DNA of 45,709 nucleotides, taken from the NCBI GenBank assembly GCA_964587505.1, contig CAZPLD010000001.1, positions 1-45,709 of the forward strand, read 5' to 3'. Of the stretch, positions 841-40,123 are shown one piece after another (the first letter of the stretch is position 1; each line of letters begins with the position of its first letter). The DNA is from an uncultured Candidatus Saccharibacteria bacterium. Its GTDB lineage: Bacteria > Patescibacteriota > Minisyncoccia > 2-02-FULL-40-12 > GWA2-44-9. A model generated the notes under the pieces. That model was not told the origin of the DNA. It was given only the letters and a program-made list of their open reading frames with translations, and did no database searches. Position numbers and translations under genes: made by a program.

Positions 841-909
841 ACCTTCTCCTTTTCAATAAACTCAAATCTTGCCATTAAGATAGCACGTCTTTAACTACCC
901 GTCAATCCA

Positions 910-930
910 ATGTTGCGGGGGTGGGATTCG
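910..930 (-). repeat. Inverted copy of the 3' end of the tRNA-fMet gene (att-like fragment)
   Basis: Minus strand reads cgaatcccacccccgcaacat, identical over its first 20 nt (cgaatcccacccccgcaaca) to 2393..2412. It lacks the 5' T-stem strand, so it is not a tRNA. Confidence 0.8.
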
Positions 931-931
931 C

Positions 932-1612
932 CTACAATCTGGGAATATTTAAAAGACGGTCTGTTAGGGCGTTTAGTTTATATAACAAGTTCGCACTTTT
1001 CTTAATTCTAAAATCTATGGTTCCGTAATGGACATTATGATTTTCATATTTCTTAGCTGGTTTAGTTTTAACATATCTAAAATTCGTAAAGTTCTCTGGT
1101 TTTATTTTGAGATAGTTTCTCCAGAAAGAAATTATTTCTTTCTCACGGTTCTTGTGTATGGAATTGATGTGTATAGAAAATTTAATATCCATCTTTTTTA
1201 TATTATAAAAACGATAAAACCATTCAATCATAAACCTTACTATTTGTTTATTACTATTAGTAAACTGTACCGTCCCATATGTTTTTGTTCCCTCGGCTAA
1301 ATACAAAGCAAGACCCGCTATAAAGAATTCTCCTTTCGTTAATTTGTTGAGTTTTTTTGCTTCTTCTGTGGCTTGCCGTATTGCATTCACCCTTTTCATT
1401 CTCTGAAAATTCGCACCCTTCAAGCGTCCCCGGGTAATTAGGTGTTGTTTTTCATCCAAAACCATTTTTAGCTGTTTATCTGTTAATTTGATATCTCTAC
1501 ACCACAAACTAACTGTGCTTTGAGATACTTCAATAATACGAGCTATGTCTTTAATACTTTTTCCCAAACTTCTCAATTTTCGAGCTCTGATTTTTAATTC
1601 CGATTTGGCCAT
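932..1612 (-). CDS. HTH plus LAGLIDADG-like homing-endonuclease-family protein (226 aa), free-standing
   Basis: N-terminal HTH-like segment (GKSIKDIARIIEVSQSTVSLW). Degenerate LAGLIDADG motif (FIAGLALYLAEGTK). TGgTATAAT extended -10 lies 15 nt before the ATG. Confidence 0.7.
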   Translation of the reverse strand: MAKSELKIRARKLRSLGKSIKDIARIIEVSQSTVSLWCRDIKLTDKQLKMVLDEKQHLITRGRLKGANFQRMKRVNAIRQATEEAKKLNKLTKGEFFIAGLALYLAEGTKTYGTVQFTNSNKQIVRFMIEWFYRFYNIKKMDIKFSIHINSIHKNREKEIISFWRNYLKIKPENFTNFRYVKTKPAKKYENHNVHYGTIDFRIKKSANLLYKLNALTDRLLNIPRL

Positions 1613-1733
1613 AGATAGTTATAATACATTATACCACACTTTCTTTTTGGTGGAAATTGCAATTGTGCATAAAGTATGATATGTTAGATTACAGAAATCG
1701 CGGGGTAGAGCAGCGGCAGCTCGTCAGGCTCAT

Positions 1734-2373
1734 AAGAAATTGTGACCTATCATAGTAATGTGGTATGGAAAACTTCCGAAATTGCCGGAAACCCGATTCG
1801 CCAAAGGCGAAGGGCAATCAGCAGCCAAGGATTGTGTTCTTTATAATTTAGCTTCTCTTAATTGCCGATATGATTTCTCACGACGTTCTAATTCGTCCCG
1901 AGATAACTTATAGGTTTTGGGCGGACATTCAAGTTGATAGCCAATAGCAATGTCTGCTTCATGAGATTTGGTAATAAGGAATGGTTTAACTTTCTGGAGA
2001 AGAATGCAAGCTTCCCGAGATGACCAAGAAACTGTATAAGATTGTTTGCGAAGTTTTCCTGTATCAAGAGTTCTTGTTCTTCTTTTTTTATAAATTGTTC
2101 CTCCAAAGTGTTCTTGAATCCAATTAATTGTTTTCAAAGAACACATACATATCTCCATTCTCAAAGAGTAGCGAGCATTGATGTAAGGAAAAGCTGGCTT
2201 CCGACGGAAAATAGAAATATGTCCTTCTCCGTCGATAAGACCCGCTAAATAAGCAACATCGGTCATATGTAAATTATAGCACAATCAAGGTTCAGAGACT
2301 ATAATGGAAGCATCCGCCAATTGGCGGATGATGGGATAGTCCGACACTGTCAGTAATGGCAGCTAACAGCCAG
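1734..2373 (+). mobile_element. Group I intron in the anticodon loop of tRNA-fMet
   Basis: Begins after the T of CAT and ends in G. Core-like segments: gaaattgccggaaaccc (1778..1794), cagcagccaagg (1819..1830), ggttcagagactataa (2289..2304). The stem gattgtg/cacaatc brackets the ORF insert. Confidence 0.75.
1841..2266 (-). CDS. LAGLIDADG homing endonuclease (single-motif type), antisense to its host intron
   Basis: MTDVAYLAGLIDGEGHISI... Start moved to the second Met. TGcTATAAT (2281..2273) lies 6 nt upstream of the ATG. Confidence 0.8.
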   Translation of the reverse strand: MTDVAYLAGLIDGEGHISIFRRKPAFPYINARYSLRMEICMCSLKTINWIQEHFGGTIYKKRRTRTLDTGKLRKQSYTVSWSSREACILLQKVKPFLITKSHEADIAIGYQLECPPKTYKLSRDELERREKSYRQLREAKL

Positions 2374-2413
2374 AACCTGAAGGTCGTGGGTTCGAATCCC
2401 ACCCCCGCAACAA

Positions 2414-2456
2414 AAATAAATCAGGGCTACCCTTTACGGGTGGTTTTGATTTATTT
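2414..2456 (+). terminator. Long hairpin after the tRNA-fMet 3' exon
   Basis: aaataaatca-gggctaccc / gggtggttt-tgatttattt, with G-T wobbles valid on the plus strand and a T-rich tail. Confidence 0.5.
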
Positions 2457-2600
2457 CTAAGTTGCTGGAGGGAGCGAATGCTATTGAGGTATTCGCGTTG
2501 GGATTTGAAAAGCGGAGCGATGTTACAAATTGCAATCGGCAATTTGTAACCGCGAGCTGGGACTGCGACCAAAATTGCGGAAGCAATTTTGAGTTGTAGC

Positions 2601-2622
2601 CGAATCCCACCCCCCGCAACAT
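2601..2622 (+). repeat. Direct copy of the tRNA-fMet 3' end (att-like fragment)
   Basis: cgaatcccaccccccgcaacat. It differs from 2393..2412 by one extra c. There is no matching T-stem strand upstream. Confidence 0.8.
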
Positions 2623-18312: not shown

Positions 18313-19266
18313 TTAGGACAAAACAAACGAGAATAATGAGTCGGTTAGATTAAGAGTCCCTTCCTTGGAATGGGTATCCAAATCGAGTAGATGACTATAA
18401 ATATTTTTTAACTCATCTAAGTTGAACTTCCCCGCACTCTGGTATGTTTTTCTAGCTACGAACGGATGAAGACGGGCTTTCTTAACTATGGCATCAACAG
18501 ACATCCCCCTGTCCGACAAGTCTTTAACCGCCAATAGATTTCTAAAGCCGTATACAATCATAGTCAGAAGATAATAAGGGTCCCGGCTGTTTTTAATCTC
18601 TTTGAATAAGATCTCATAGGCTTTCGGCTTATTCTTTCCGGCAATGGCGTCAATAAGATCAAACATATTCAGGTCAATTTTTTTGAAACCAAGAAGCGCT
18701 ACGTCTTCTTTTTTTATAGCACCGCCCGTTTTAAAGCTGCACAATTTATCAATCTCGTTCGCCAAAGCCCAGCTCTCGTTTCCTGCGGTTACAATCAGTT
18801 CTTTTATCGCATCCTGCTCTACAGAATATTTTCTTAAAGCAAACTCGCTCTTTATCCATTTTGCCAGCTTTTCTCTTTCAAGATACTCAACATTCCTAAC
18901 AACACTATCTTTTCCGGCCAATAAATTAAAAAGTGTTCTGTTCTTTGTTAGCTCTTTTCCCTCTTGGTTCTCAATAACCAGAAGGACAACATCTTTTTCT
19001 TTAAGAAGGTTCTGGGTTTGGATAAGCTCCCCTATCCGGTCCGAGTCGGCTTTCTTGGAAAATAAATTTTTCAGAACTATCAATTTTACCCCTCCGAACA
19101 AAGAACCGCTCTTAACAGCGTCTTCGGCCTTGGCCGTCTCGCCCGCATCGGAAAGGTCAAATTTAAAAAAAATACCACCCGGATGCTTTTTCCGGTAGTT
19201 GTCCAAAACGACATCGCTGTTTTGTTTCAGCCGGTAGCCGTCCGGCCCATATAGAAATATGACCAT
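18313..19266 (-). CDS. holA: DNA polymerase III delta subunit
   Basis: Size and the N-terminal IFLYGPDGYRL pattern are typical of HolA. Helical C-terminal domain. Confidence 0.7.
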   Translation of the reverse strand: MVIFLYGPDGYRLKQNSDVVLDNYRKKHPGGIFFKFDLSDAGETAKAEDAVKSGSLFGGVKLIVLKNLFSKKADSDRIGELIQTQNLLKEKDVVLLVIENQEGKELTKNRTLFNLLAGKDSVVRNVEYLEREKLAKWIKSEFALRKYSVEQDAIKELIVTAGNESWALANEIDKLCSFKTGGAIKKEDVALLGFKKIDLNMFDLIDAIAGKNKPKAYEILFKEIKNSRDPYYLLTMIVYGFRNLLAVKDLSDRGMSVDAIVKKARLHPFVARKTYQSAGKFNLDELKNIYSHLLDLDTHSKEGTLNLTDSLFSFVLS

Positions 19267-19267
19267 T

Positions 19268-20266
19268 TTAATTCGTTACAATTTCTATCCAGATCTTGCC
19301 TGGTGCGAATTGAATTTCCTTTCCCGAATCATCATAAAAATATAATTTGCTGTCCAACCGGGCGGAATCTTTGTTCCATTTTCCGTTTATCACAACTCCA
19401 TTCTGATAGATCCGGGCCACTCCTTCGCCTTGAACATTAACGCTTATGTACTGTTCCTTCAAAAATTTTGAAGCCGTATTCATTATTATCACGACACCAG
19501 CTTTTACCGCCTGGCCATTGTTTTTATCAATCTCGGCGTTGCCATTTCTATATCGGCCATACAGATTCGTTTCGGAATCATATGTCCAACTAACGGCATG
19601 CGAACCCGGATAATTTATACTTATCCGGTCGGTCAAATTGGACAGGTTTTTCTTCGGCTCTTTCTCTTGGTGAGGGTATCCGGGAAAATTATTTTTAAAA
19701 TCATATTTGAGGTCTTGAGCAGTTTTTGTTAAAAGGTCAAGATTTGTAAATCCGTTATGAGGCGGACGAATTCCTGCTTTTCTGTAAAATATCTCGCCTT
19801 CGTATTTTAAAGCATCAATGTTATCCACTATTTGGTTGTCCAGTTTTTCAAGAGCTCCTTGCTCTCCGCCCCAATGGGCATATATTATTTTCATGCCTGC
19901 TGCCAAAGGAATAAAGTCGTCTCTGGCCGATCTTACCGAGCCAATTTCTTTCGGCTTTTCGCACTGAAAAACGGCCATAAACCGGGTAATCCCGGTCGGA
20001 TCAACCGGCATCTCAAAAACCATATCAGCTTGACTTATTCCGGAAAGAGGCCTGGCCTCTGGATCCGATGCCATCATGACAGCAATAGGCCTGATATCGA
20101 CATCTGGACAAGGAAGTCCGGTAAGCGTGGATGTGTTGTCTTTATTTATAATGCTTATCCCGTTATTGATAATGATCTCTTTATTCCACCAGACAATAAA
20201 ACTTATTACAAAAACAAGTGTAACTGCCCCGGTCAGTATTAGAATTTTATTTAAATTGAATTTCAT
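19268..20266 (-). CDS. DUF3048-family (YerB-like) extracytoplasmic protein
   Basis: N-terminal TM segment. RPIAVMMASDPEARPLSGISQADMVFEMPV and SVRSARDDF segments are typical of DUF3048. Confidence 0.75.
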   Translation of the reverse strand: MKFNLNKILILTGAVTLVFVISFIVWWNKEIIINNGISIINKDNTSTLTGLPCPDVDIRPIAVMMASDPEARPLSGISQADMVFEMPVDPTGITRFMAVFQCEKPKEIGSVRSARDDFIPLAAGMKIIYAHWGGEQGALEKLDNQIVDNIDALKYEGEIFYRKAGIRPPHNGFTNLDLLTKTAQDLKYDFKNNFPGYPHQEKEPKKNLSNLTDRISINYPGSHAVSWTYDSETNLYGRYRNGNAEIDKNNGQAVKAGVVIIMNTASKFLKEQYISVNVQGEGVARIYQNGVVINGKWNKDSARLDSKLYFYDDSGKEIQFAPGKIWIEIVTN

Positions 20267-20271
20267 GGTTT

Positions 20272-20301
20272 TAGCGACTAGCCAATAGCCACTAGTCGCT
20301 A
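20272..20301. repeat. Hairpin tagcgactag-(10 nt)-ctagtcgcta in the mutM/DUF3048 spacer
   Basis: Perfect 10-bp arms. The left flank and arm (20264..20291) resemble 29216..29243. Confidence 0.5.
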
Positions 20302-20315
20302 TTCGCTAATAGCTA

Positions 20316-21194
<879 letters not shown>

Positions 21195-21206
21195 ATATAA
21201 TAAACT

Positions 21207-23879
21207 TTAAATTGATTCCATTTCGGCCCAATTTTTACCATATTTCGCGTCAACTGTTAAGGGCACCTCGAGTTTGTGAATGTTTTCCATTATGTTTTTG
21301 ATCTTGCCCGACCACTCTTTGACCAATTCGTTTTTTACTTCAAACAGAAGCTCGTCGTGCACTTGTAGCAATAGTTTTATGTTTTTTTCGGCTTTTTCTT
21401 TGTGAATTAGGTCATGGATCTGTACCATTGATAATTTAATCAGATCTGCAGCTGTTCCCTGAACGGGCATATTGATGGCCATTCTTTCGGCTTGGCTTAC
21501 AAGCTGGGGCATACCTGAAAACGCTTCAGGCAACGACCTTCTTCTGCCGAAAATTGTTGTTACGTAACCATCCCGATGGACTTTGTCTTTCATCTCTTGC
21601 ATATATCCGGCTATTCCGGAAAATTCACGCATATACCTGTCAATAAATTCTCTAGCTTTGGTTCTATCTACTCCGGAAGCTCTTTGAAAACCCATGATTC
21701 CCATCCCGTACAAAATGCCGAAGTTCAAAACTTTGGCCTGCCGGCGCATATTGGTAGTGACCTTGTCGGGAGCGACGCCGAATATCTCGGCTGCAGTCCG
21801 GGTGTGAATATCTTCTCCCCTTTTGAACGCCTCCGTCATTTTTTTATCTTTTGAAATATGGGCAGCAATGCGAAGTTCAAGCTGGGAATAATCCAGAGAC
21901 AGCAACTTATATCCCGGCGAAGCTACAAAAACTTTGCGGAACTTTTGGCCCAGTTCGGTGCGTATAGGAATATTCTGTAAATTAGGCTCCTCGCTCGAAA
22001 GCCGGCCAGTCGTGGTTCCAGTCTGGTTCAAGGTAGTACAAAGACGACCGGCTTTGTTTACCAGCGCCGGAAACGGTTCAATATATGTTGTTTTTAATTT
22101 TTGAAGTTCGCGGTATTTCAGTATCAAATCAATGATTGGATGGGTATCAGATAATTTTTCCAGCTCCGGTGCAGCTGTCGATATGGCCCCTTTGCCTGTT
22201 TTCTTCAATTTGCCGGTAAGTTTGAGCCGTTCAAATAATATTTTTGAAAGCTGTTGGGAGGAATTGACATTGAATTCTGTACCGGCCAGTTCATATATTT
22301 TCTTCTCCAGTTTTCTAAGTTCTTTATCGGTTGCTTTGCCAAGTTTGATAATTGCGCCAATGTCTATTTTTACTCCGGCCAGCTCCATCTCGGCCAAAAC
22401 TATTGAAAGAGGCAGTTCTATTTTTTCAAGTACCCAAAGGGTATCGCCGTAGCGCAGTTTGGCGGTTAATTTATCTTTTAGTTCCAATATAAAACCGGGT
22501 CTTTTACGCAGATTGGGGTCGATATTTTTCTTGAATTCCGTAAAATATATCTTATCCAAAGAATAATCTTTCATATCGGAGTTCGATAAGTAAGCGGCTA
22601 ATTTTGAATCAAACTCAATCCCTTCCAGATGAATTCCTTTTTGCAGAAGATATTTGGATATGGCCTTAAAGTCATGGCCCGATTTCTTTATCTTTTTGTC
22701 CTCCAGAATCTCTCTAAGCTTACAATGGGGGTCTTTGTTTTTTAAAAAATTATCAAATGACATAGAGACCGACTCTTTGTCATCAAATGCTACATTCAAA
22801 TTATCCTGCTCTATGTCAAAAGCAAAGGCTTTTTGTTTGGCCATTTTTTCAAGCAAGGCGGCAATGTCCTTAATATTCTTAAGCTCTTTGACGCTTGAGC
22901 CCTCCGTCACAGGAAGAAGCGAGGCCTGCTCCTGCACCGTCGCGGAACCATCCAACTCCGAAACCCTCTTCAATAAGCTGAAAAAGCCCATTTCCTGGAA
23001 AATTCTGGCGATATCGCCCCGGTTCACTTTCTTTCTCCAGTCGGCATCTTCGAGTTTGAAATCTATTTCAACATTTTTGATAATGGTGGAGAGTTTTCTT
23101 GAAAAAAGAGCCATGTCCTTGTTCTCAATAAGTTTTTGAACCAATTTTTCTGAAAGAGGCGGTTTTATTTTGATTGTTTTGTTTTTTTGTTTAGAAATTA
23201 GTAATTGGTAATTAGAAATTTCCTGATAAAGACCCTCCAGGGATTTAAATGTCTTTATCAGGACAGATGCGGTCTTCTCCCCTATTCCCGGAACGCCGGG
23301 AATGTTGTCCGATGGGTCTCCTTTGAGCCCTTTGAAATCAACCAGCTGCTCCGGCTCGAGATTATAGCGTTTCCTGACCTCTTCTTCGTCATACATAACC
23401 GTATCAGTTACTCCTTTTCTTAAAGTCAGAACAACCACCTTATCGTCTTCCACAAGCTGAAGAGTATCCAAATCTCCAGTAGCGATAATTGTCTGGAGAT
23501 CTTTTTCTTTCCTGGTCTTCTCGGCGATAGAACCGATAACATCATCGGCTTCAAAGCCGGCTTTTTCAAAAATGGGAATACCAAAGGCAGTCAGGACTTC
23601 TTTTACTAACGGGACTTGGCTATGCAAACCCTCGGGCGCTTTTTCACGGTGAGCTTTATATTCCGCAAATTCTTCATGGCGGAATGTCGGGCCAGCCAAG
23701 TCAAATGTGGCCACGATATAATCGGGTTTTATGTCTTTGATGGCTTTTATCAATACCGACGTAAAACCATACACAGCGTTAGTCAAAACGCCTGTCGGCG
23801 AAGCCAGTGTCTGGGGCAAGGCATGAAAAGCCCGGTGAACCAATGCGTGTCCGTCAATTAGAATCAGTTTTTTAGTCAT
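21207..23879 (-). CDS. polA: DNA polymerase I
   Basis: 5' nuclease domain. 3'-5' exo-like FDIE. Polymerase motifs DYSQLELRI, RRQAKVLNFGILYG, QVHDELLFE. Confidence 0.95.
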   Translation of the reverse strand: MTKKLILIDGHALVHRAFHALPQTLASPTGVLTNAVYGFTSVLIKAIKDIKPDYIVATFDLAGPTFRHEEFAEYKAHREKAPEGLHSQVPLVKEVLTAFGIPIFEKAGFEADDVIGSIAEKTRKEKDLQTIIATGDLDTLQLVEDDKVVVLTLRKGVTDTVMYDEEEVRKRYNLEPEQLVDFKGLKGDPSDNIPGVPGIGEKTASVLIKTFKSLEGLYQEISNYQLLISKQKNKTIKIKPPLSEKLVQKLIENKDMALFSRKLSTIIKNVEIDFKLEDADWRKKVNRGDIARIFQEMGFFSLLKRVSELDGSATVQEQASLLPVTEGSSVKELKNIKDIAALLEKMAKQKAFAFDIEQDNLNVAFDDKESVSMSFDNFLKNKDPHCKLREILEDKKIKKSGHDFKAISKYLLQKGIHLEGIEFDSKLAAYLSNSDMKDYSLDKIYFTEFKKNIDPNLRKRPGFILELKDKLTAKLRYGDTLWVLEKIELPLSIVLAEMELAGVKIDIGAIIKLGKATDKELRKLEKKIYELAGTEFNVNSSQQLSKILFERLKLTGKLKKTGKGAISTAAPELEKLSDTHPIIDLILKYRELQKLKTTYIEPFPALVNKAGRLCTTLNQTGTTTGRLSSEEPNLQNIPIRTELGQKFRKVFVASPGYKLLSLDYSQLELRIAAHISKDKKMTEAFKRGEDIHTRTAAEIFGVAPDKVTTNMRRQAKVLNFGILYGMGIMGFQRASGVDRTKAREFIDRYMREFSGIAGYMQEMKDKVHRDGYVTTIFGRRRSLPEAFSGMPQLVSQAERMAINMPVQGTAADLIKLSMVQIHDLIHKEKAEKNIKLLLQVHDELLFEVKNELVKEWSGKIKNIMENIHKLEVPLTVDAKYGKNWAEMESI

Positions 23880-23885
23880 TAGAAA

Positions 23886-24326
23886 TTAGTAATTAGTAAT
23901 TAGTAATTTTCTGGTCTTTTTATCAATATGGTCAATATGAACCGTAATGTGTTTCTTTGGGAGTATTTCTTTTACTCTCTCTGCCCATTCTACGAGGACA
24001 ATATTGTATGGCTCGTGAATAATTTCTTGAAATTCAGGGATTTTTAAATCTTTAGGATTATCTACTCTGTAACAATCGAGGTGATAAAGACTAAATATTC
24101 CGTGAGAAACTTTGTACTTTTTCATTAAAACAAATGTCGGACTTTTTATTTTTTCTTTAATCCCTAAAGCTTTAGCGAATCCTTGTATAAAAGTTGTTTT
24201 TCCGGCACCCAACTCCCCTTCCAAAGCTATGACCGCCCCCTTCTTTGTCTTAATAATTTTGCGAGCTAAATCCGCGGCAATCTTTTGGGTTTCTTTAACA
24301 CTTTTTGATAAAAATTTCATAAACAA
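23886..24326 (-). CDS. tsaE: tRNA t6A biosynthesis ATPase TsaE
   Basis: GELGAGKTTF P-loop, SPTFVLMKKY, YHLDCYR. Confidence 0.85.
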   Translation of the reverse strand: MFMKFLSKSVKETQKIAADLARKIIKTKKGAVIALEGELGAGKTTFIQGFAKALGIKEKIKSPTFVLMKKYKVSHGIFSLYHLDCYRVDNPKDLKIPEFQEIIHEPYNIVLVEWAERVKEILPKKHITVHIDHIDKKTRKLLITNY

Positions 24327-24366
24327 TCACTAGTATTATGTTATCAAATTTAATTTACCCTCTTGA

Positions 24367-24401
24367 GTGTCCTATTTTATGCAAATGCTTTTTTTAGGAC
24401 A
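24367..24401. repeat. 35-bp direct repeat, copy 1 (contains 7-bp inverted arms tgtccta/taggaca)
   Basis: gtgtcctattttatgcaaatgctttttttaggaca, identical to 25009..25043. Confidence 0.85.
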
Positions 24402-24410
24402 CTCACCATC

Positions 24411-24992
24411 TTATTTCAAAAATATTCCTGTTTTTTCAGCAAATTTTTTCCTAAGAAGTTGGTCTTTATCCAAATCATGAGCCACAAAAAAGTGTATATA
24501 CTGTTCCACTTCAAAAGCTTTTGCTATTACTGCCAACTCTTCCCGGCATTCAAAAGGGTGTGTCCAAAGACTTTTTTGAGCCATAATAAACCCCAATTCC
24601 TTCAGCTTACTTAACAGAGCTTGTCTGGCTTGTTTCTTTGGGCCAGGAATATCAAATGAGCAAAACCTCCAAAAACCGTCCCACTGTTCAGGTTTTTTGA
24701 CAGTTAGTTCGTCCAAATTATACCTACTAATCAAGTTTTTACCTAAATTAGTAATTTCTACATTATAACTGCCATCTGAATTTTGTGAAACATTAATTCT
24801 TCTTTTGTTTTTAAGCCGATTAATTTCTCTGTGAAAATCTCCCCATTTTTTACGATCCAATTCTCTTTTAAAGGCCTCCCCTATTTTAAGACCAAAGTAA
24901 GGGTTTGTAGAAGCTAAAACAATCGAACCCCCTACAGCTAAAGCCTTCAATAATTTAAACGAAAAAGATTCCTTAAGTTTTCTTTTAGCCAT
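24411..24992 (-). CDS. PaaX-like transcriptional regulator family protein (193 aa)
   Basis: wHTH-like segment, then WDGFWRFCSFDIPGPKKQARQALLSKLKELGFIMAQKSLWTHP, matching the PaaX (Cas2-fold-like) signature W.G.W...IP....R..L...L...GF. Confidence 0.6.
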   Translation of the reverse strand: MAKRKLKESFSFKLLKALAVGGSIVLASTNPYFGLKIGEAFKRELDRKKWGDFHREINRLKNKRRINVSQNSDGSYNVEITNLGKNLISRYNLDELTVKKPEQWDGFWRFCSFDIPGPKKQARQALLSKLKELGFIMAQKSLWTHPFECREELAVIAKAFEVEQYIHFFVAHDLDKDQLLRKKFAEKTGIFLK

Positions 24993-24998
24993 TATTAA

Positions 24999-25026
24999 AA
25001 TATACCAGGTGTCCTATTTTATGCAA
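24999..25026 (-). promoter_or_regulatory. Putative leaderless promoter of the PaaX-like gene, embedded in repeat copy 2
   Basis: Minus strand: TTGCAT (25026..25021), 16 nt, TATATT (25004..24999), then 6 nt to the ATG. No SD. Confidence 0.45.
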
Positions 25027-25043
25027 ATGCTTTTTTTAGGACA
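25009..25043. repeat. 35-bp direct repeat, copy 2
   Basis: Identical to 24367..24401. Confidence 0.85.
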
Positions 25044-25092
25044 TTTCGTTTTATTGTTTTATTTAACGGGTAATAATAGTAATTTCTCAATG

Positions 25093-25116
25093 AAAAAACC
25101 GCGCTGGATTGCGCGG
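25093..25116 (-). terminator. Intrinsic terminator ending the GC-rich two-gene unit
   Basis: ccgcgc-aatcca-gcgcgg followed by T6 on the minus strand. Confidence 0.7.
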
Positions 25117-25149
25117 CGGGCTCTGAAGCCCTGGGTAGGAAAGAACTTT

Positions 25150-25575
25150 TTACTTGAAACTGTCGCAGGCGCCTTCGGGGTCCCGACGAAGTGTCAGCAC
25201 GTAGTGCCGCTGACAGTCAGCATAGGAACTCCATTGGGGCTGTGGGGGCGCCGTGTTCTGCTGAACCGGCGACACCACAGACGTGGCGGGCTGGGCGGCT
25301 ATTGAAGGAGTGGCCAATGTCTGATGACCTGCTGCTGACCACCCCCCCACGAAGCTTACGAATGATAACCAGGCGAGGATAGCGATTCCTCCCAAGAAGA
25401 CCATAACTGTCTTGAACATATTCCATTTATGTTCAATCGTGTCCTGTTGAAGAATCAGGGGTTCTGTCAACTTTGACAGGCCGAAGGTCATCTGTCCCTT
25501 CCGTCCCCCAGGAGTCGGTCTTGCTGTGGTCGGCGACGCCTTAGGCGCCGCCGGTGTTGTTGGTGTTGTCGCCAT
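25150..25575 (-). CDS. Hypothetical single-pass membrane protein (141 aa), GC-rich
   Basis: ggaggt SD. Pro/Thr/Ala-rich N-terminus. TM segment VMVFLGGIAILAWLSFVSFVGGW. Confidence 0.6.
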   Translation of the reverse strand: MATTPTTPAAPKASPTTARPTPGGRKGQMTFGLSKLTEPLILQQDTIEHKWNMFKTVMVFLGGIAILAWLSFVSFVGGWSAAGHQTLATPSIAAQPATSVVSPVQQNTAPPQPQWSSYADCQRHYVLTLRRDPEGACDSFK

Positions 25576-25581
25576 TTCTGT

Positions 25582-26436
25582 TTACCTCCAGACCAGGATA
25601 AGTCCCGGTCGGCTTTCGGGTTTAGCCGGCGCTACGCCGACCCGGCCAGTAAGACCGTCGTTACCGACGACCATACTTACGATTTCGCCAGTGTAATCCC
25701 CTTCCAACAGAGCACACTTCTGTTCCTTTGGTAAAAGGGTTTCGAACGGCTTCGTATCTCTATAGACACGAAGTGGGCTAGAACTCTGGTTCTCCAGAGT
25801 GACCATCTCCTGTTCCATGCAGTTGAGACGATCACCTGGCAAACCAGCTCCCCAGAATGGAGAAGTAGGCCCACCCGGCCTCGTGCCGACTGCGACAGGA
25901 GTTCCGTCGCTGGCAATCCGCCTGCCTTGTTCCGGCGACGGAGGCGTGACGATAGTCCCGTTGTCGCGCTGGTCTTTGGGCTGACCTCGATACCGGGAGT
26001 CGTTCACCAGAACGAATCCTGCCGCTGCTTCAATCCAGCCGGCCGCGCCACGCGGATTGTTGATGATCCGACGCGTTCCGTCAGCCAAGGCCACGATCCC
26101 GCCGGCACGCTCGATGCGCTGCCGTCCGGAAAGCGGTTGCCAGTTGCGGTCATACATCTGGTAGAATCCCCTGTTGGGCATCGGGAGACCGTAGGCCATC
26201 CCGTTCCAGATGATGTCTTTCGCCAGCGACCGATACCCTGCCCGGTGTAGCTGGTCCGAGAGACCATCCACTAAGCCAAGGTTGTCGGCAGTGAGCATCA
26301 GCGCTTGATTCCCCTGGAACTTGTACCACCAACCATCGAGGGTCTGAGGAATGTACCCCAAACCCTGGGCGCTGGCCGGAACGGCCGACGCCAGAAATGC
26401 GAAAACGAACAACACCGACACGAGCTTCTTGGCCAT
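25582..26436 (-). CDS. Hypothetical secreted protein (284 aa), GC-rich
   Basis: Start moved to the ATG at 26436 (aaggagaggg SD). Signal peptide MAKKLVSVLFVFAFLASAVPASAQG. Confidence 0.65.
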   Translation of the reverse strand: MAKKLVSVLFVFAFLASAVPASAQGLGYIPQTLDGWWYKFQGNQALMLTADNLGLVDGLSDQLHRAGYRSLAKDIIWNGMAYGLPMPNRGFYQMYDRNWQPLSGRQRIERAGGIVALADGTRRIINNPRGAAGWIEAAAGFVLVNDSRYRGQPKDQRDNGTIVTPPSPEQGRRIASDGTPVAVGTRPGGPTSPFWGAGLPGDRLNCMEQEMVTLENQSSSPLRVYRDTKPFETLLPKEQKCALLEGDYTGEIVSMVVGNDGLTGRVGVAPAKPESRPGLILVWR

Positions 26437-26488
26437 GCTACCCTCTCCTTGTCCTTTCGGACGAAATTCGATTTTCAAAGATACATAT

Positions 26489-26517
26489 ATTATAACAAAT
26501 ATCAGTTAAAATGTAAA
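26489..26517 (-). promoter_or_regulatory. Consensus promoter of the GC-rich unit
   Basis: Minus strand: TTTACA (26517..26512), 17 nt, TATAAT (26494..26489). Confidence 0.6.
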
Positions 26518-29165: not shown

Positions 29166-29185
29166 CCAAAAACCGGCCTTTTGAG
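29166..29185 (-). promoter_or_regulatory. Conserved 20-nt promoter-upstream element, copy A
   Basis: Minus strand CTCAAAAGGCCGGTTTTTGG. Near-identical copies at 34638..34657 and 35105..35125. Confidence 0.5.
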
Positions 29186-29220
29186 ACGATTTATATTACT
29201 TCAACGAAAGATGATAATGG

Positions 29221-34607: not shown

Positions 34608-34657
34608 CTTATATCCCTTATCAGAAAACTTGTCAAACCAAAAATCGGCCTTTTGAG
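34608..34657 (-). promoter_or_regulatory. Promoter plus conserved upstream element, copy B
   Basis: Minus strand: CTCAAAAGGCCGATTTTTGG (34657..34638), TTGACA (34636..34631), 17 nt, TATAAG (34613..34608). Confidence 0.5.
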
Positions 34658-34673
34658 CTAATAAGAATCATAC

Positions 34674-35073: not shown

Positions 35074-35125
35074 ATCATACTATAATACTAATAACATTGC
35101 AAGATCAAAAAACCGGCCTTTTGAG
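35074..35125 (-). promoter_or_regulatory. Promoter plus conserved upstream element, copy C
   Basis: Minus strand: CTCAAAAGGCCGGTTTTTTGA (35125..35105), TTGCAA (35102..35097), 17 nt, TATGAT (35079..35074). Confidence 0.55.
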
Positions 35126-35203
35126 CCGATTTTGTCTATTCCCAAAAGCTAAAGTCATGGCACTTTTTACATACCCGCACAGTTTGTAAACTTATAGCGA
35201 AAA

Positions 35204-37744: not shown

Positions 37745-37865
37745 GCTCACACAACCTCTATGCCTGACTACGGAGCTAATTTCAGAAATACAATGGGGGT
37801 CTTTGCATGCAAAGACCCCCATTGTATTGGCATGCTCCCTCCGCATGCGTAGAGGTTGTGTGAGC
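37745..37865. repeat. Nested perfect inverted repeats in the NYN-pnp spacer
   Basis: Outer 16-bp arms gctcacacaacctcta (37745..37760) / tagaggttgtgtgagc (37850..37865). Inner perfect 40-bp palindrome at 37788..37827. Confidence 0.7.
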
Positions 37866-39187: not shown

Positions 39188-40123
39188 ATGAATATAAAAG
39201 ACCTTAAAATCCAATACCTTGAACATCTGGAGATAGAGAAGAATCGTTCACCTAAGACCCTGGAGAATTATGGGCGGTATTTGGATAGATTTTTTCAGTT
39301 TGCCCTTCGACAAAGCTCAGGGCAAGCCAAAGTATTAAACCCCAGCAATATTACCGAGGACTTAATCAGGCAGTACCGGCTTTATTTAAATCGACTCAAA
39401 GACAATGAGGGAAGCTCGCTCAAAAAAGTAACCCAAAACTACCACATCATTGCTTTAAGAAACTTTCTTAAATATCTGGCAAAAAGAGATATCAAATCCG
39501 TCTCCGCTGAAAAGGTAGAACTCGGTAAACAGGAGGACAGAGAAGTTACATTCCTTGAAGCGGACGAATTGGAACGACTCCTTAAGTCACCGGAAGGGGA
39601 CAACCTGGATGCCTTACGCGACAGGGCGGTTCTGGGAACTTTGTTCAGCACCGGTATGCGTGTATCGGAACTTTGTTCTTTGGATAGAGACAAAATCGAC
39701 ACAACCCGGGGCGAGCTAAGCATTCGCGGAAAGGGAAGTAAAATCAGGGTGGTATTTTTGTCCGATGATGCCAAAGAAGACATAAATAAATACCTAAGCA
39801 AGAGGTCAGACGTAGATGAAGCATTGTTTATACGTATCCCAAAATCCAAGACATTTTCAAAAGATTCCGGCTTGCGCCTTACCCCCCGAAGCATCCAAAG
39901 AATAGTAGAAAAATACGCCACCAAAGCCGGCATAGTCGGAAAGAACGTCTCACCTCACACACTAAGACATTCCTACGCTACAGATCTCCTCCGCAACGGA
40001 GCTGATATCCGCTCCGTCCAATCAATGCTCGGCCATTCATCAGTAACTACCACCCAAATCTATACTCACGTCACCGATAAGCAATTAAGGGAAGTCCATA
40101 GGAAATTCCATAACAAGAAATAA
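39188..40123 (+). CDS. Xer-type tyrosine site-specific recombinase
   Basis: SAM-like N-domain. Catalytic region with R (GMRVSEL), HTLRHSYAT, and LGHSSVTTTQIYTHV. Confidence 0.9.
   Translation: MNIKDLKIQYLEHLEIEKNRSPKTLENYGRYLDRFFQFALRQSSGQAKVLNPSNITEDLIRQYRLYLNRLKDNEGSSLKKVTQNYHIIALRNFLKYLAKRDIKSVSAEKVELGKQEDREVTFLEADELERLLKSPEGDNLDALRDRAVLGTLFSTGMRVSELCSLDRDKIDTTRGELSIRGKGSKIRVVFLSDDAKEDINKYLSKRSDVDEALFIRIPKSKTFSKDSGLRLTPRSIQRIVEKYATKAGIVGKNVSPHTLRHSYATDLLRNGADIRSVQSMLGHSSVTTTQIYTHVTDKQLREVHRKFHNKK

What the first reader, a model, noticed from the sequence alone, without database searches (positions are those of the whole stretch)
24367..25043. PaaX-like regulator gene bracketed by two perfect 35-bp direct repeats that carry promoter and operator features
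The sequence gtgtcctattttatgcaaatgctttttttaggaca occurs identically at 24367..24401 and 25009..25043. Each copy contains 7-bp inverted arms (tgtccta/taggaca) spaced 20 nt apart.

In the copy upstream of the PaaX-like gene, the arms straddle a TTGCAT -35 box, followed by TATATT and, 6 nt later, the ATG. That is a leaderless, autoregulation-style layout. The other copy lies between the regulator's stop codon and the start of the tsaE-polA-mutM-DUF3048-holA string. There the downstream -10 is poor.

The repeats could be duplicated operators tying the DNA-repair and replication operon to this regulator. They could also be the junctions of an inserted single-gene cassette.
Basis: partly seen in the sequence, partly recalled or inferred. 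Interest (0 to 1): 0.6.

Follow-up and report, generated by a model that had tools for sequence, protein, structure and literature searches.

The report
Palindrome pair bracketing a mini-PaaX regulator
In a groundwater Patescibacteria genome, a small PaaX-type DNA-binding protein gene is bracketed by two copies of a palindromic promoter/operator element, and relatives down to 40% identity keep a co-evolving pair of this kind, so the protein most likely controls its own gene and perhaps the tsaE-polA operon next to it.

Summary
The 35-mer occurs exactly twice in the window (24367-24401 and 25009-25043; 0 expected by chance). It brackets a 193-aa gene on the minus strand (24411-24992).

The protein is a "mini-PaaX": a winged helix plus a Cas2-like domain, with no ligand-binding C-terminal domain. 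Its best fold match is E. coli PaaX.

All 18 distinct relatives examined (40-95% identity) also carry a repeated palindrome on both flanks. Two of them are not followed by tsaE. The palindrome sequence is lineage-specific and its arms covary strongly (16 of 20 pairs change on both sides; 0 of 500 shuffles reach the observed score). A GCA-N2-TGC core is invariant in the 41 aligned copies (the 40% paralog has another centre).

The upstream copy overlaps a promoter (TTGCAT, 16 nt, TG-extended TATATT, then 6 nt to the ATG), which implies a leaderless mRNA. This fits autorepression of the PaaX type; E. coli PaaX binds TGATTC-N27-GAATCA.

The motif is not confined to this gene. Related genomes carry solo copies upstream of mrdA, mnmA and other genes. 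The window's own metagenomes hold a third copy.

A recently inserted cassette and an assembly artefact are both rejected. An RNA or DNA hairpin role, and a REP-like spreading element, are not excluded. No binding or transcript data exist.

The parts
25009..25043 (-). Upstream copy of the 35-nt palindromic element. Arms are TGTCCTA (25010-25016) and TAGGACA (25037-25043). On the gene strand it reads TGTCCTAAAAAAAGCATTTGCATAAAATAGGACAC. It is the putative operator and overlaps the -35.
25021..25026 (-). -35-like hexamer TTGCAT inside the upstream copy
   Evidence: conserved in all copies of the window's clade except L014_dn, which has TTGCTT
24999..25004 (-). -10 hexamer TATATT, with TG one base upstream (extended -10), lying 6 nt before the ATG, which implies a leaderless transcript
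   Evidence: the same geometry is seen in relatives
24411..24992 (-). [quoted passage not shown]
24365..24404 (-). Downstream copy (35-mer at 24367-24401), with arms extended to 10 bp (GAGTGTCCTA / TAGGACACTC). It starts 9 nt after the stop codon and lies upstream of tsaE. It is a putative second operator or an mRNA 3' hairpin.
25098..25117 (-). Intrinsic terminator of the upstream GC-rich gene (GCCGCGC...GCGCGGT followed by a T-run). It insulates the mini-PaaX promoter from upstream transcription.
   Evidence: an equivalent hairpin is seen in relatives
18313..24326 (-). Downstream co-directional gene string: tsaE (23886-24326), polA (21207-23879), mutM (20316-21194), DUF3048 (19268-20266), holA (18313-19266). 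It is probably read through from the mini-PaaX promoter.
   Evidence: no predicted terminator or strong promoter between 24326 and 24411

Best explanation
The two 35-mers are paired copies of a composite cis-element, a palindromic operator that carries promoter parts. The element belongs to the gene it brackets. That gene encodes a 'mini-PaaX', a winged-helix plus Cas2-like dimerisation protein.

Shown:
- The pair is conserved at both flanks of all 18 distinct homologues examined.
- Its arms co-evolve symmetrically.
- A GCA-N2-TGC core (axis positions 2-4) is invariant in the 41 aligned copies, and CCTA/TAGG at positions 11-14, about one helical turn out, is frequent though replaced in some lineages.
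- The upstream copy overlaps the -35 of a promoter whose -10 sits 6 nt before the ATG.

Inferred:
- A mini-PaaX dimer binds the upstream palindrome and occludes RNA polymerase. This would be autorepression, as PaaX does at Px.
- The same protein binds the downstream palindrome. There it would either loop with the upstream site (a loop of about 640 bp enclosing its own gene) or act as a roadblock that meters read-through into tsaE-polA-mutM-DUF3048-holA.
- Solo copies in front of other genes in related genomes (mrdA, mnmA and others) would be further regulon members.
- The signal sensed is unknown, because the ligand-binding PaaX C-terminal domain is absent.
For: - Fold: the AlphaFold model shows a wHTH (H10-21, H39-45, H50-62, wing 66-80) plus a ferredoxin-like Cas2 fold. 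The best PDB match is E. coli W PaaX 8a39 (E 9.8e-7, 195 columns), followed by Rv0674 and then Cas2 proteins. hhalign aligns residues 55-172 with E. coli PaaX 59-172.
- Known PaaX behaviour: its site is TGATTC(N27)GAATCA, and it represses its own promoter by steric hindrance (PMC9493321).
- Conservation of the pair: 16 distinct tsaE-linked loci (50-95% identity) each share a 23-41 nt repeat between the 5' and 3' flank. So do L049 and L050, which have other neighbours.
- Covariation over 41 distinct copies: 16 of 20 pairs change on both sides. The score is 0.355 against 0.121 when shuffled (0/500) and 0.08-0.14 when slid. GCA/TGC is invariant.
- Promoter: TTGCAT-16-TATATT with TG is detected. 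The -10 position and the 5-7 nt distance to the start codon are kept in relatives. In L050 the -35, the -10 and the start all lie within the palindrome.
- Purifying selection: the motif is 78-97% identical between relatives (81-89% for the window's own copies against L001 and L022), while the non-coding flanks are about 46-60%.
- In the L005 lineage the downstream copy has lost its arms but keeps the centre and has a good -10 (TAAAAT at 16 nt). This fits arms as operator and centre as promoter.
- The recognition-helix region differs between arm types.
Against: - No binding, transcript or TSS data exist; no RNA run holds the locus.
- In L018, L019 and L020 the up and down copies of one genome differ by symmetric, compensated changes (4 pairs). 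This speaks for base pairing, or for a symmetrising repair mechanism, rather than base-specific readout by one protein.
- Solo copies in TGTTC-type genomes are identical over about 36 nt at 9 sites. Transcription-factor regulons are usually more degenerate than that.
- Palindromes of 38-50 nt are perfect in distant lineages, longer than a usual dimer operator.
- The downstream copy in the window lacks a convincing -10.
- One contig (L047) carries two different arm types.
Confidence: 0.55

Rival explanations
1. The palindromes act as nucleic-acid hairpins rather than as duplex operators. One form is an RNA stem-loop at the 3' end of the mini-PaaX message, serving as a stabiliser, a processing site or a partial attenuator before tsaE. 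Another is a cruciform or single-strand DNA hairpin. The protein might recognise the folded form.
For: - Symmetry is kept copy by copy, even where two copies of one genome differ (L018, L019, L020).
- In the window's downstream copy the arms extend beyond the direct repeat to 10 bp.
- Predicted RNA folding energies are -18.4 kcal/mol (z -5.1) for the window's downstream copy and -38 to -42 kcal/mol (z about -9) for L016 and L018.
- On the sense strand, arm mismatches are G.T 11 times against A.C 5 times at positions 13-18. This is weak evidence.
- The downstream copy lies inside the probable transcript.
Against: - The upstream copy overlaps the -35 of a leaderless promoter, so it is not in that mRNA.
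- No U-tract follows any copy, whereas true terminators in these genomes have one.
- The invariant GCA/TGC and the frequent CCTA/TAGG one helical turn apart, with an A/T-rich spacer between them, are sequence-specific. A hairpin does not require them.
- In the window's clade the inner 16-20 nt are unpaired.
Confidence: 0.17
2. Palindrome-gene-palindrome is a REP/RAYT-like self-propagating unit. The wHTH-Cas2-like protein would maintain or spread its cognate palindromes, which happen to carry promoter parts. The solo copies would then be dispersed progeny rather than selected operators.
For: - Lineage-specific palindromes flank the gene in every lineage and in at least three genomic contexts.
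- Solo copies identical over the ~36 nt of the motif and its arms occur at 9 other sites in TGTTC-type genomes.
- A solo copy present in L034 is absent from the syntenic region of the window.
- A third copy exists in the window's metagenomes.
- The Cas2-like domain keeps an invariant Asp (D114, FDIP).
Against: - Copy number is low: only the pair in the whole Yanofskybacteria species-representative MAG, and 3 copies in the window's population.
- There is no HUH/Y1 or other transposase motif or fold.
- The solo site at mrdA is orthologously conserved between diverged genomes while its flanks diverged.
- 7 of 9 solo copies point at a co-oriented downstream gene.
- There are no relatives on viral contigs.
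Confidence: 0.12
3. The repeats are recombination junctions (att-like or a target duplication) left by a recent insertion of a single-gene cassette.
For: Perfect 35-nt direct repeats flank exactly one gene. A tyrosine recombinase gene lies 14 kb away, at 39188-40123.
Against: - The gene lies between the same neighbours (YraN, three hypothetical genes, then tsaE-polA) in loci from 95% to 50% protein identity.
- The palindrome sequence has diverged with the lineage while staying paired.
- No deletion joint appears in four runs.
- No solo site lies in front of tsaE.
Confidence: 0.03
4. The duplication is an assembly artefact.
For: Short-read graphs break at the repeat.
Against: Four independent runs give the same three unitigs joined through the repeat, with about 2-3 fold depth on the repeat. 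Dozens of independently assembled relatives show the same pair.
Confidence: 0.01

Closest known systems
PaaX repressor of the phenylacetate catabolon (E. coli, Pseudomonas) and its Px/Pa/Pz operators
   Same: It has a winged helix plus a Cas2-like central domain, and PaaX is the best structural match. PaaX binds a widely spaced inverted repeat, TGATTC-N27-GAATCA, and represses its own promoter by occlusion (PMC9493321). Here the operator-like site TGTCCTA-N20-TAGGACA overlaps the gene's own -35.
   Different: The protein is 193 aa instead of about 316 aa. It lacks the C-terminal domain that senses phenylacetyl-CoA. No paa genes are found among the window ORFs scanned with Pfam. The site is present on both sides of the gene, and distant lineages have perfect 38-50 nt palindromes. 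The organism is a Patescibacteria (CPR) bacterium.
Auxiliary operators and DNA looping (lac O1/O2, gal OE/OI, deo operators)
   Same: Two copies of one operator lie a few hundred bp apart, one at the promoter and one downstream.
   Different: Here the loop would enclose the regulator's own gene. Looping or oligomerisation of the protein is untested. This comparison rests on textbook knowledge, not on a tool result.
REP sequences and their RAYT transposases
   Same: A single-copy, vertically inherited gene is flanked by lineage-specific palindromes, and further near-identical copies lie in intergenic regions.
   Different: The protein has no HUH/Y1 transposase fold or motif. Copy number is 3 to about 11 rather than hundreds. 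The flanking copies are in direct orientation. The solo copies mostly sit in promoter position.
Integron gene cassettes with attC sites
   Same: A single ORF is bounded by imperfect palindromes.
   Different: There is no adjacent IntI. The content is conserved rather than variable, and there is no attC architecture.
PadR/MarR-type wHTH dimers on 16-20 bp palindromes
   Same: The wHTH part also matches PadR and MarR operator complexes. The conserved bases lie one helical turn apart with an A/T-rich spacer between them, as expected for helix-plus-wing contacts.
   Different: The dimerisation module is different (Cas2-like), and the symmetric site is much longer.

Membership tests
PaaX family transcriptional repressors | [quoted passage not shown] | tested here: met
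   The AlphaFold model has three helices plus a beta-hairpin wing (residues 10-94). Foldseek aligns 195 columns to PaaX 8a39. hhalign covers the recognition helix and wing. Pfam's PaaX N-terminal model did not hit at E<=0.01.
PaaX family transcriptional repressors | Central Cas2-like (PaaX_M, PF20803) domain | tested here: met
   PF20803 at E 8.5e-19, 67.9 bits against a cutoff of 24, residues 102-176. Cas2 structures appear among the fold hits.
PaaX family transcriptional repressors | C-terminal helical PaaX_C domain that responds to phenylacetyl-CoA | tested here: not met
   The protein ends at residue 193, just after the Cas2-like domain. There is no PaaX_C hit. The whole family is 180-200 aa long.
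PaaX family transcriptional repressors | Genomic association with paa (phenylacetate) catabolic genes | tested here: not met
   Neighbours are tsaE, polA, mutM, DUF3048, holA, YraN and hypothetical secreted proteins.
PaaX family transcriptional repressors | Binds a widely spaced inverted repeat that overlaps its target promoters, its own included | not testable with these tools
   The sequence layout fits: a 7-N20-7 inverted repeat over the -35. Binding itself needs EMSA or footprinting.
REP/RAYT systems | Flanked gene encodes an HUH/Y1 (IS200/IS605-like) transposase | tested here: not met
   Pfam finds only PaaX_M. Fold hits are PaaX, Cas2 and wHTH regulators.
REP/RAYT systems | Tens to hundreds of dispersed palindrome copies per genome | tested here: not met
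   There are two copies in 45.7 kb. Only the pair is found in the Yanofskybacteria species-representative MAG. The window's population has three graph branches. About 11 sites are found over all TGTTC-type contigs. The scan required an exact 25-nt centre, so diverged copies would be missed.
Integron cassette / att-flanked insertion | Presence/absence polymorphism of the cassette among relatives, with an adjacent site-specific recombinase | tested here: not met
   Synteny is conserved from 95% to 50% identity. No empty site is seen among motif-selected loci. The nearest integrase is 14 kb away. Caveat: most loci were fetched through the gene itself.
Intrinsic (rho-independent) terminator | GC-rich hairpin with a short loop followed by a U-tract | tested here: not met
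   The scan reports no terminator at either copy. It does report the genuine one at 25117-25098. No T-run follows the palindromes in any lineage.

The most novel reading that the evidence does not exclude
Mini-PaaX genes with their two flanking palindromes are self-contained units. The wHTH-Cas2-like protein recognises the folded (hairpin or cruciform) form of its own lineage-specific palindrome and maintains or copies it to new intergenic sites. Because the palindrome carries a -35 and an A-tract, each new copy would install a promoter that the protein controls. This would be a REP/RAYT-like way of building a regulon in the tiny, regulator-poor genomes of Patescibacteria.
Probability: 0.12. 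Interest if true: 0.8.

Novelty: new variant of a known kind. Interest (0 to 1): 0.5.

Why it matters
Patescibacteria (CPR) have very small genomes, few recognisable regulators and almost no experimentally defined cis-elements.

This analysis gives a concrete regulator-operator pair that can be tested by EMSA or a reporter assay. The protein family is widespread: 444 clusters at 50% identity match at E<=1e-30 and 2572 at E<=1e-10. Strong comparative evidence (covariation, purifying selection, conserved promoter geometry) already supports the pairing.

It would place tRNA-modification genes (tsaE, mnmA), cell-wall genes (mrdA) and replication/repair genes (polA, mutM, holA) under one small regulator. 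It would also show that the PaaX architecture is used well beyond phenylacetate catabolism.

Three features are unusual for operators and hint at a mechanism beyond simple repression: palindromes on both sides of the gene, symmetry kept copy by copy, and identical solo copies elsewhere.

Tried and rejected
- The exact window protein is not on record in the contig index, so relatives were used instead.
- PDB sequence search with the family profile gave nothing significant. Only fold comparison found PaaX.
- No RNA-seq run holds the locus, so transcription starts, read-through and processing could not be examined.
- Rfam finds only tRNAs in the window and nothing at the repeats.
- Viral contigs hold no motif and no protein relatives.
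- Literature searches for PaaX in Patescibacteria or for CPR promoter motifs found nothing relevant.
- The genes that carry solo motifs in relatives (mrdA, mnmA and others) were searched for in the window. None is present.
- The region syntenic with the L034 solo site has no motif in the window.
- No second mini-PaaX gene exists in the window or next to the solo sites.
- A Flavobacteriales hit to the centre of the motif (L023, L025) lacks the arms and was treated as chance.
- The G.T versus A.C mismatch test for RNA against DNA pairing was inconclusive (11 against 5).
- Rejected explanations: terminator (no U-tract), recent cassette insertion, assembly artefact.
- Not possible: fetching tsaE/polA loci independently of the gene to look for empty sites, and recovering the contig of the third copy.

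Full report
**1. The observation**

The 35-mer GTGTCCTATTTTATGCAAATGCTTTTTTTAGGACA is present exactly at 24367-24401 and 25009-25043. There is no other match with up to three mismatches, and none is expected by chance. The pattern TGTCCTA-N(15-25)-TAGGACA also occurs only there. It is the only perfect repeat longer than 25 nt in the window. The bases next to the repeat differ, so it is exactly 35 nt.

The repeat brackets one ORF on the minus strand, 24411..24992, 193 aa. Downstream on the same strand lie tsaE, polA, mutM, a DUF3048 gene and holA. Just upstream of the upstream copy there is an intrinsic terminator at 25117-25098.

Logan assemblies of four groundwater DNA runs hold the whole stretch. 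Their graphs break at the repeat into the same unitigs, and the repeat unitig has about 2-3 times the depth of its flanks. The duplication is therefore real.

**2. The protein**

Pfam finds only PaaX_M, the Cas2-like central domain of PaaX (E 8.5e-19, residues 102-176). An AlphaFold model built on 53 homologues (mean pLDDT 76.6) shows three parts:
- helices 10-21, 39-45 and 50-62;
- a beta-hairpin wing (66-80) and helix 82-94, which together with the helices form a winged helix-turn-helix;
- a ferredoxin-like beta-alpha-beta-beta-alpha-beta domain.

Foldseek against the PDB puts E. coli W PaaX (8a39) first (E 9.8e-7, 195 aligned columns). M. tuberculosis Rv0674 is second, followed by many Cas2 proteins and PadR/MarR-DNA complexes. 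hhalign aligns residues 55-172 with residues 59-172 of E. coli K-12 PaaX.

The protein stops right after the Cas2-like domain, so the C-terminal domain of canonical PaaX is missing. I call it a mini-PaaX. The family is large: 444 clusters at 50% identity match at E<=1e-30 and 2572 at E<=1e-10, nearly all 180-200 aa long. The closest named genome is a Candidatus Yanofskybacteria MAG. Other homologues are annotated as Paceibacterota or Patescibacteria.

**3. The pair is conserved and co-evolves**

Loci were fetched for homologues of 95 to 50% identity. All keep the order YraN, two to four hypothetical genes, mini-PaaX, tsaE, polA. Every one of the 16 distinct loci shares a 23-41 nt repeat between the 5' and the 3' flank of the gene.

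In the window's clade the centre AAAAAAAGCATTTGCATAA is constant, while the arms come in at least four complementary versions:
- TGTCCTA/TAGGACA
- TGTTCTA/TAGAACA
- GGTCCTA/TAGGACC
- TGTCCCCTAAA/TTTAGGGGACA

In more distant lineages the elements are perfect 38-50 nt palindromes of quite different sequence, for example:
- GCCCACTCCTAAAATTAGCAC|GTGCTAATTTTAGGAGTGGGC
- CTTCCCCTAAAATAAGCAA|TTGCTTATTTTAGGGGAAG
- GACTGCTTTATTAATTTAGCAT|ATGCTAAATTAATAAAGCAGTC

I anchored 41 distinct copies on the symmetry axis, which gave an ungapped alignment. In it:
- GCA/TGC at positions 2-4 from the axis is invariant.
- CCTA/TAGG at positions 11-14 is frequent: C/G at 13 in 38 of 41 copies, T/A at 12 and A/T at 11 in 34, but C/G at 14 in only 16.
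- 16 of 20 symmetric pairs show changes on both sides.
- The covariation score is 0.355, against 0.121 in shuffles (0 of 500 reach it) and 0.08-0.14 when the partner is slid by 1-3 columns.

Between relatives the motif is 78-97% identical (81-89% for the window's own copies against L001 and L022), while adjacent non-coding sequence is about 46-60% identical and coding sequence mostly 73-84%, where it aligns. The element is therefore under purifying selection or is continually homogenised.

Two further homologues, L050 (47% identity) and L049 (40%), lie in other genomic contexts and are followed by convergent genes rather than tsaE. Both still have a palindrome on both flanks:
- L050: TGTCCCTAAATCTGGCAT|ATGCCAGATTTAGGGACA
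- L049: GGCTATAACAACGATCGTCGTTATAAGCC

The pair therefore belongs to the mini-PaaX gene unit and not specifically to the tsaE operon.

**4. Promoter layout**

On the gene strand the upstream copy reads TGTCCTAAAAAAAGCATTTGCATAAAATAGGACAC. It is followed by CTGG, TATATT, TTAATA and the ATG. This gives a -35 TTGCAT, a 16-nt spacer, a TG-extended -10, and a start codon 6 nt after the -10. That is the geometry of a leaderless mRNA.

The same geometry is kept in the relatives of the clade. The -10 is TATATT, TATTAT or TATCTT, the start codon follows 5-7 nt later, and the codon is ATG or GTG. In L018 and L020 a TTGCTT or TTGCTG in the palindrome centre is followed at 17-18 nt by TAATAT or TATTAT. 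In L050 the -35 (TTGTCC), the -10 (TAGTTT) and the ATG all lie within or at the edge of the palindrome. A protein bound to the upstream palindrome would therefore cover the promoter.

The downstream copy in the window has no convincing -10: the hexamer GAGGGT lies at 16 nt, and the scan reports no promoter. No terminator separates the gene from tsaE. The simplest reading is that tsaE and the genes behind it are read through from the mini-PaaX promoter.

In the L005 lineage the downstream copy has lost its arms (GGTCTTA...TAGAACT). It keeps the centre and has TAAAAT at 16 nt. This is what a promoter that escaped an arm-dependent operator would look like.

**5. Is it a dispersed repeat?**

I scanned for TAAAAAAAGCATTTGCATAAWWTAG, which leaves the arms free.

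- In one genome per species, it found the pair in the Yanofskybacteria MAG, one solo copy in another Patescibacteria MAG, and one arm-less chance hit in a Flavobacteriales MAG.
- Viral contigs gave nothing.
- Metagenome contigs gave 24 loci.

Besides pairs around the gene, there are 9 distinct solo sites. All have the arms ATGTTCTA/TAGAACAT. Their positions are:
- directly upstream of mrdA (PBP2, after mreD; two diverged orthologous loci);
- upstream of mnmA;
- upstream of a DUF4037 protein;
- upstream of several unknown ORFs;
- at two sites without an obvious downstream gene.

Seven of the nine point at a co-oriented gene. At mnmA and mrdA a -10-like hexamer lies 17-18 nt from TTGCAT, with a start codon 3-5 nt after it.

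In the window's own metagenomes the assembly graph at the repeat has three entries and three exits in all four runs. A third copy therefore exists elsewhere in that population, with other flanks.

The motif is thus a low-copy dispersed element, mostly upstream of co-oriented genes. It is neither unique to this gene nor a common repeat.

**6. Mechanism**

The best-supported explanation is a paired operator for the mini-PaaX protein.
- The upstream copy gives autorepression by promoter occlusion. This is what PaaX does at its own Px promoter, and PaaX likewise uses a widely spaced inverted repeat, TGATTC-N27-GAATCA (PMC9493321).
- The downstream copy either loops with the upstream one or blocks or meters read-through.
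- The conserved bases lie about one helical turn apart (GCA at 2-4, CCTA at 11-14) with an A/T-rich tract between them. This is as expected for recognition-helix plus wing contacts on each half-site.
- The recognition-helix region differs between arm types.

All binding steps are inferred.

Three observations do not fit a plain operator well:
- Within one genome the two copies can differ by symmetric compensated changes (L018, L019, L020).
- The outermost arms vary freely yet stay complementary, and in the window they extend further in the downstream copy only.
- Solo copies are identical over about 36 nt.

These points keep two rivals alive. One is a hairpin function, as RNA at the 3' end of the message or as DNA. 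The other is a REP/RAYT-like element that maintains or spreads its palindromes.

Evidence against the hairpin-only reading:
- The upstream copy is not transcribed from its own promoter.
- No U-tract follows any copy.
- The conservation is sequence-specific.

Evidence against the REP-like reading:
- Copy number is low.
- There is no transposase fold.
- Solo sites are orthologously conserved.

A recent cassette insertion is contradicted by the conserved synteny and by the divergence of the palindromes with the lineage. One caveat applies: most loci were fetched through the gene itself, so empty sites were looked for only among the motif-selected loci, where none was found.

**7. Comparison and novelty**

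The protein works like a PaaX-type repressor and shares two of PaaX's three domains. It fails two defining features of the PaaX family proper: the C-terminal effector domain and the association with paa genes.

I found no description of this family, of its palindromes, or of any CPR operator in the searchable literature. I therefore rate it a new variant of a known kind: an autoregulated wHTH repressor with duplicated operators. The unusual features are palindromes on both sides of the gene in all 18 homologues examined, symmetry kept copy by copy, and promoter-bearing solo copies. These justify moderate interest.

Noticed in passing
window 25090-26500 (ORFs 25150-25575 and 25582-26478, minus strand): This block is GC-rich (55-65% GC; GC3 0.61-0.64) in a genome of about 40% GC (neighbours have GC3 0.28-0.47). 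It encodes secreted-looking proteins with no Pfam match. The same GC-rich block sits directly upstream of the mini-PaaX gene in the eight relatives profiled, from 88% down to 50% identity. It is therefore a conserved compositional island and not a chimera.
   Followed up: partly
window 37748-37865: A perfect 42-nt palindrome (37787-37828, AATACAATGGGGGTCTTTGCA|TGCAAAGACCCCCATTGTATT) is nested in a larger inverted repeat, between pnp and a NYN-domain gene. The outer arm ACAACCTCTATGC.TGACT.CGG recurs in L034 and L047. It could be another dispersed element or a structured RNA.
   Followed up: no
window 900-2620: Perfect 20-nt inverted repeats carry a tRNA T-arm-like sequence (GGTTCGAATCCCACCCCCGCAACA at 2388-2412; copies at 911-930 and 2594-2614). 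They surround a LAGLIDADG endonuclease-like ORF (1841-2284) and an HTH protein (932-1612). ARAGORN and Rfam call no tRNA there. This may be a disrupted or intron-bearing tRNA region.
   Followed up: no
window 24367-24401 / 25009-25043; runs X1-X4: The assembly graphs of all four groundwater runs show a third copy of the 35-mer with other flanks. On the + strand these read ...TAAGCCAAAACCTAACGACTGTCAATCAAA [repeat] GTTTGATGGACAAATTTGAAAAACAATGTT.... The gene next to it could not be recovered.
   Followed up: partly
L047 7189-7226 and L047 1910-1934: One Hainich groundwater contig carries a TGTTC-type motif in front of mnmA. It also carries a different, perfect palindrome with the same centre (TGTACACAGAATTATGCATTTGCATAATTCTGTGTACA) between rny and the HU gene. 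One genome may therefore hold two arm types.
   Followed up: partly
L014 3296-3420 (and L015): This lineage has two tandem copies of the element upstream of the gene plus one downstream. The database's 239-aa gene call (P0019) starts inside the first copy and is probably too long.
   Followed up: no
window 23182-23225 and 23870-23913: An 84% identical TAGTAAT-rich repeat occurs inside polA and at the polA/tsaE junction. Many unrelated contigs end or branch there in the Logan graphs. It looks like a low-complexity sequence that is common in the community.
   Followed up: no
window 29168-29192, 34640-34664, 35108-35132: There are three copies of AAAAACCGGCCTTTTGAG.CGATTT. They look like weak terminators on the minus strand. 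One lies in the region syntenic with the solo motif site of L034.
   Followed up: no
window 24762-24789 (minus strand): The strongest sigma-70 consensus match of the region (TTCACA-16-TATAAT, 11 of 12) lies inside the mini-PaaX coding sequence. It may be chance in AT-rich DNA or an internal promoter towards tsaE.
   Followed up: no
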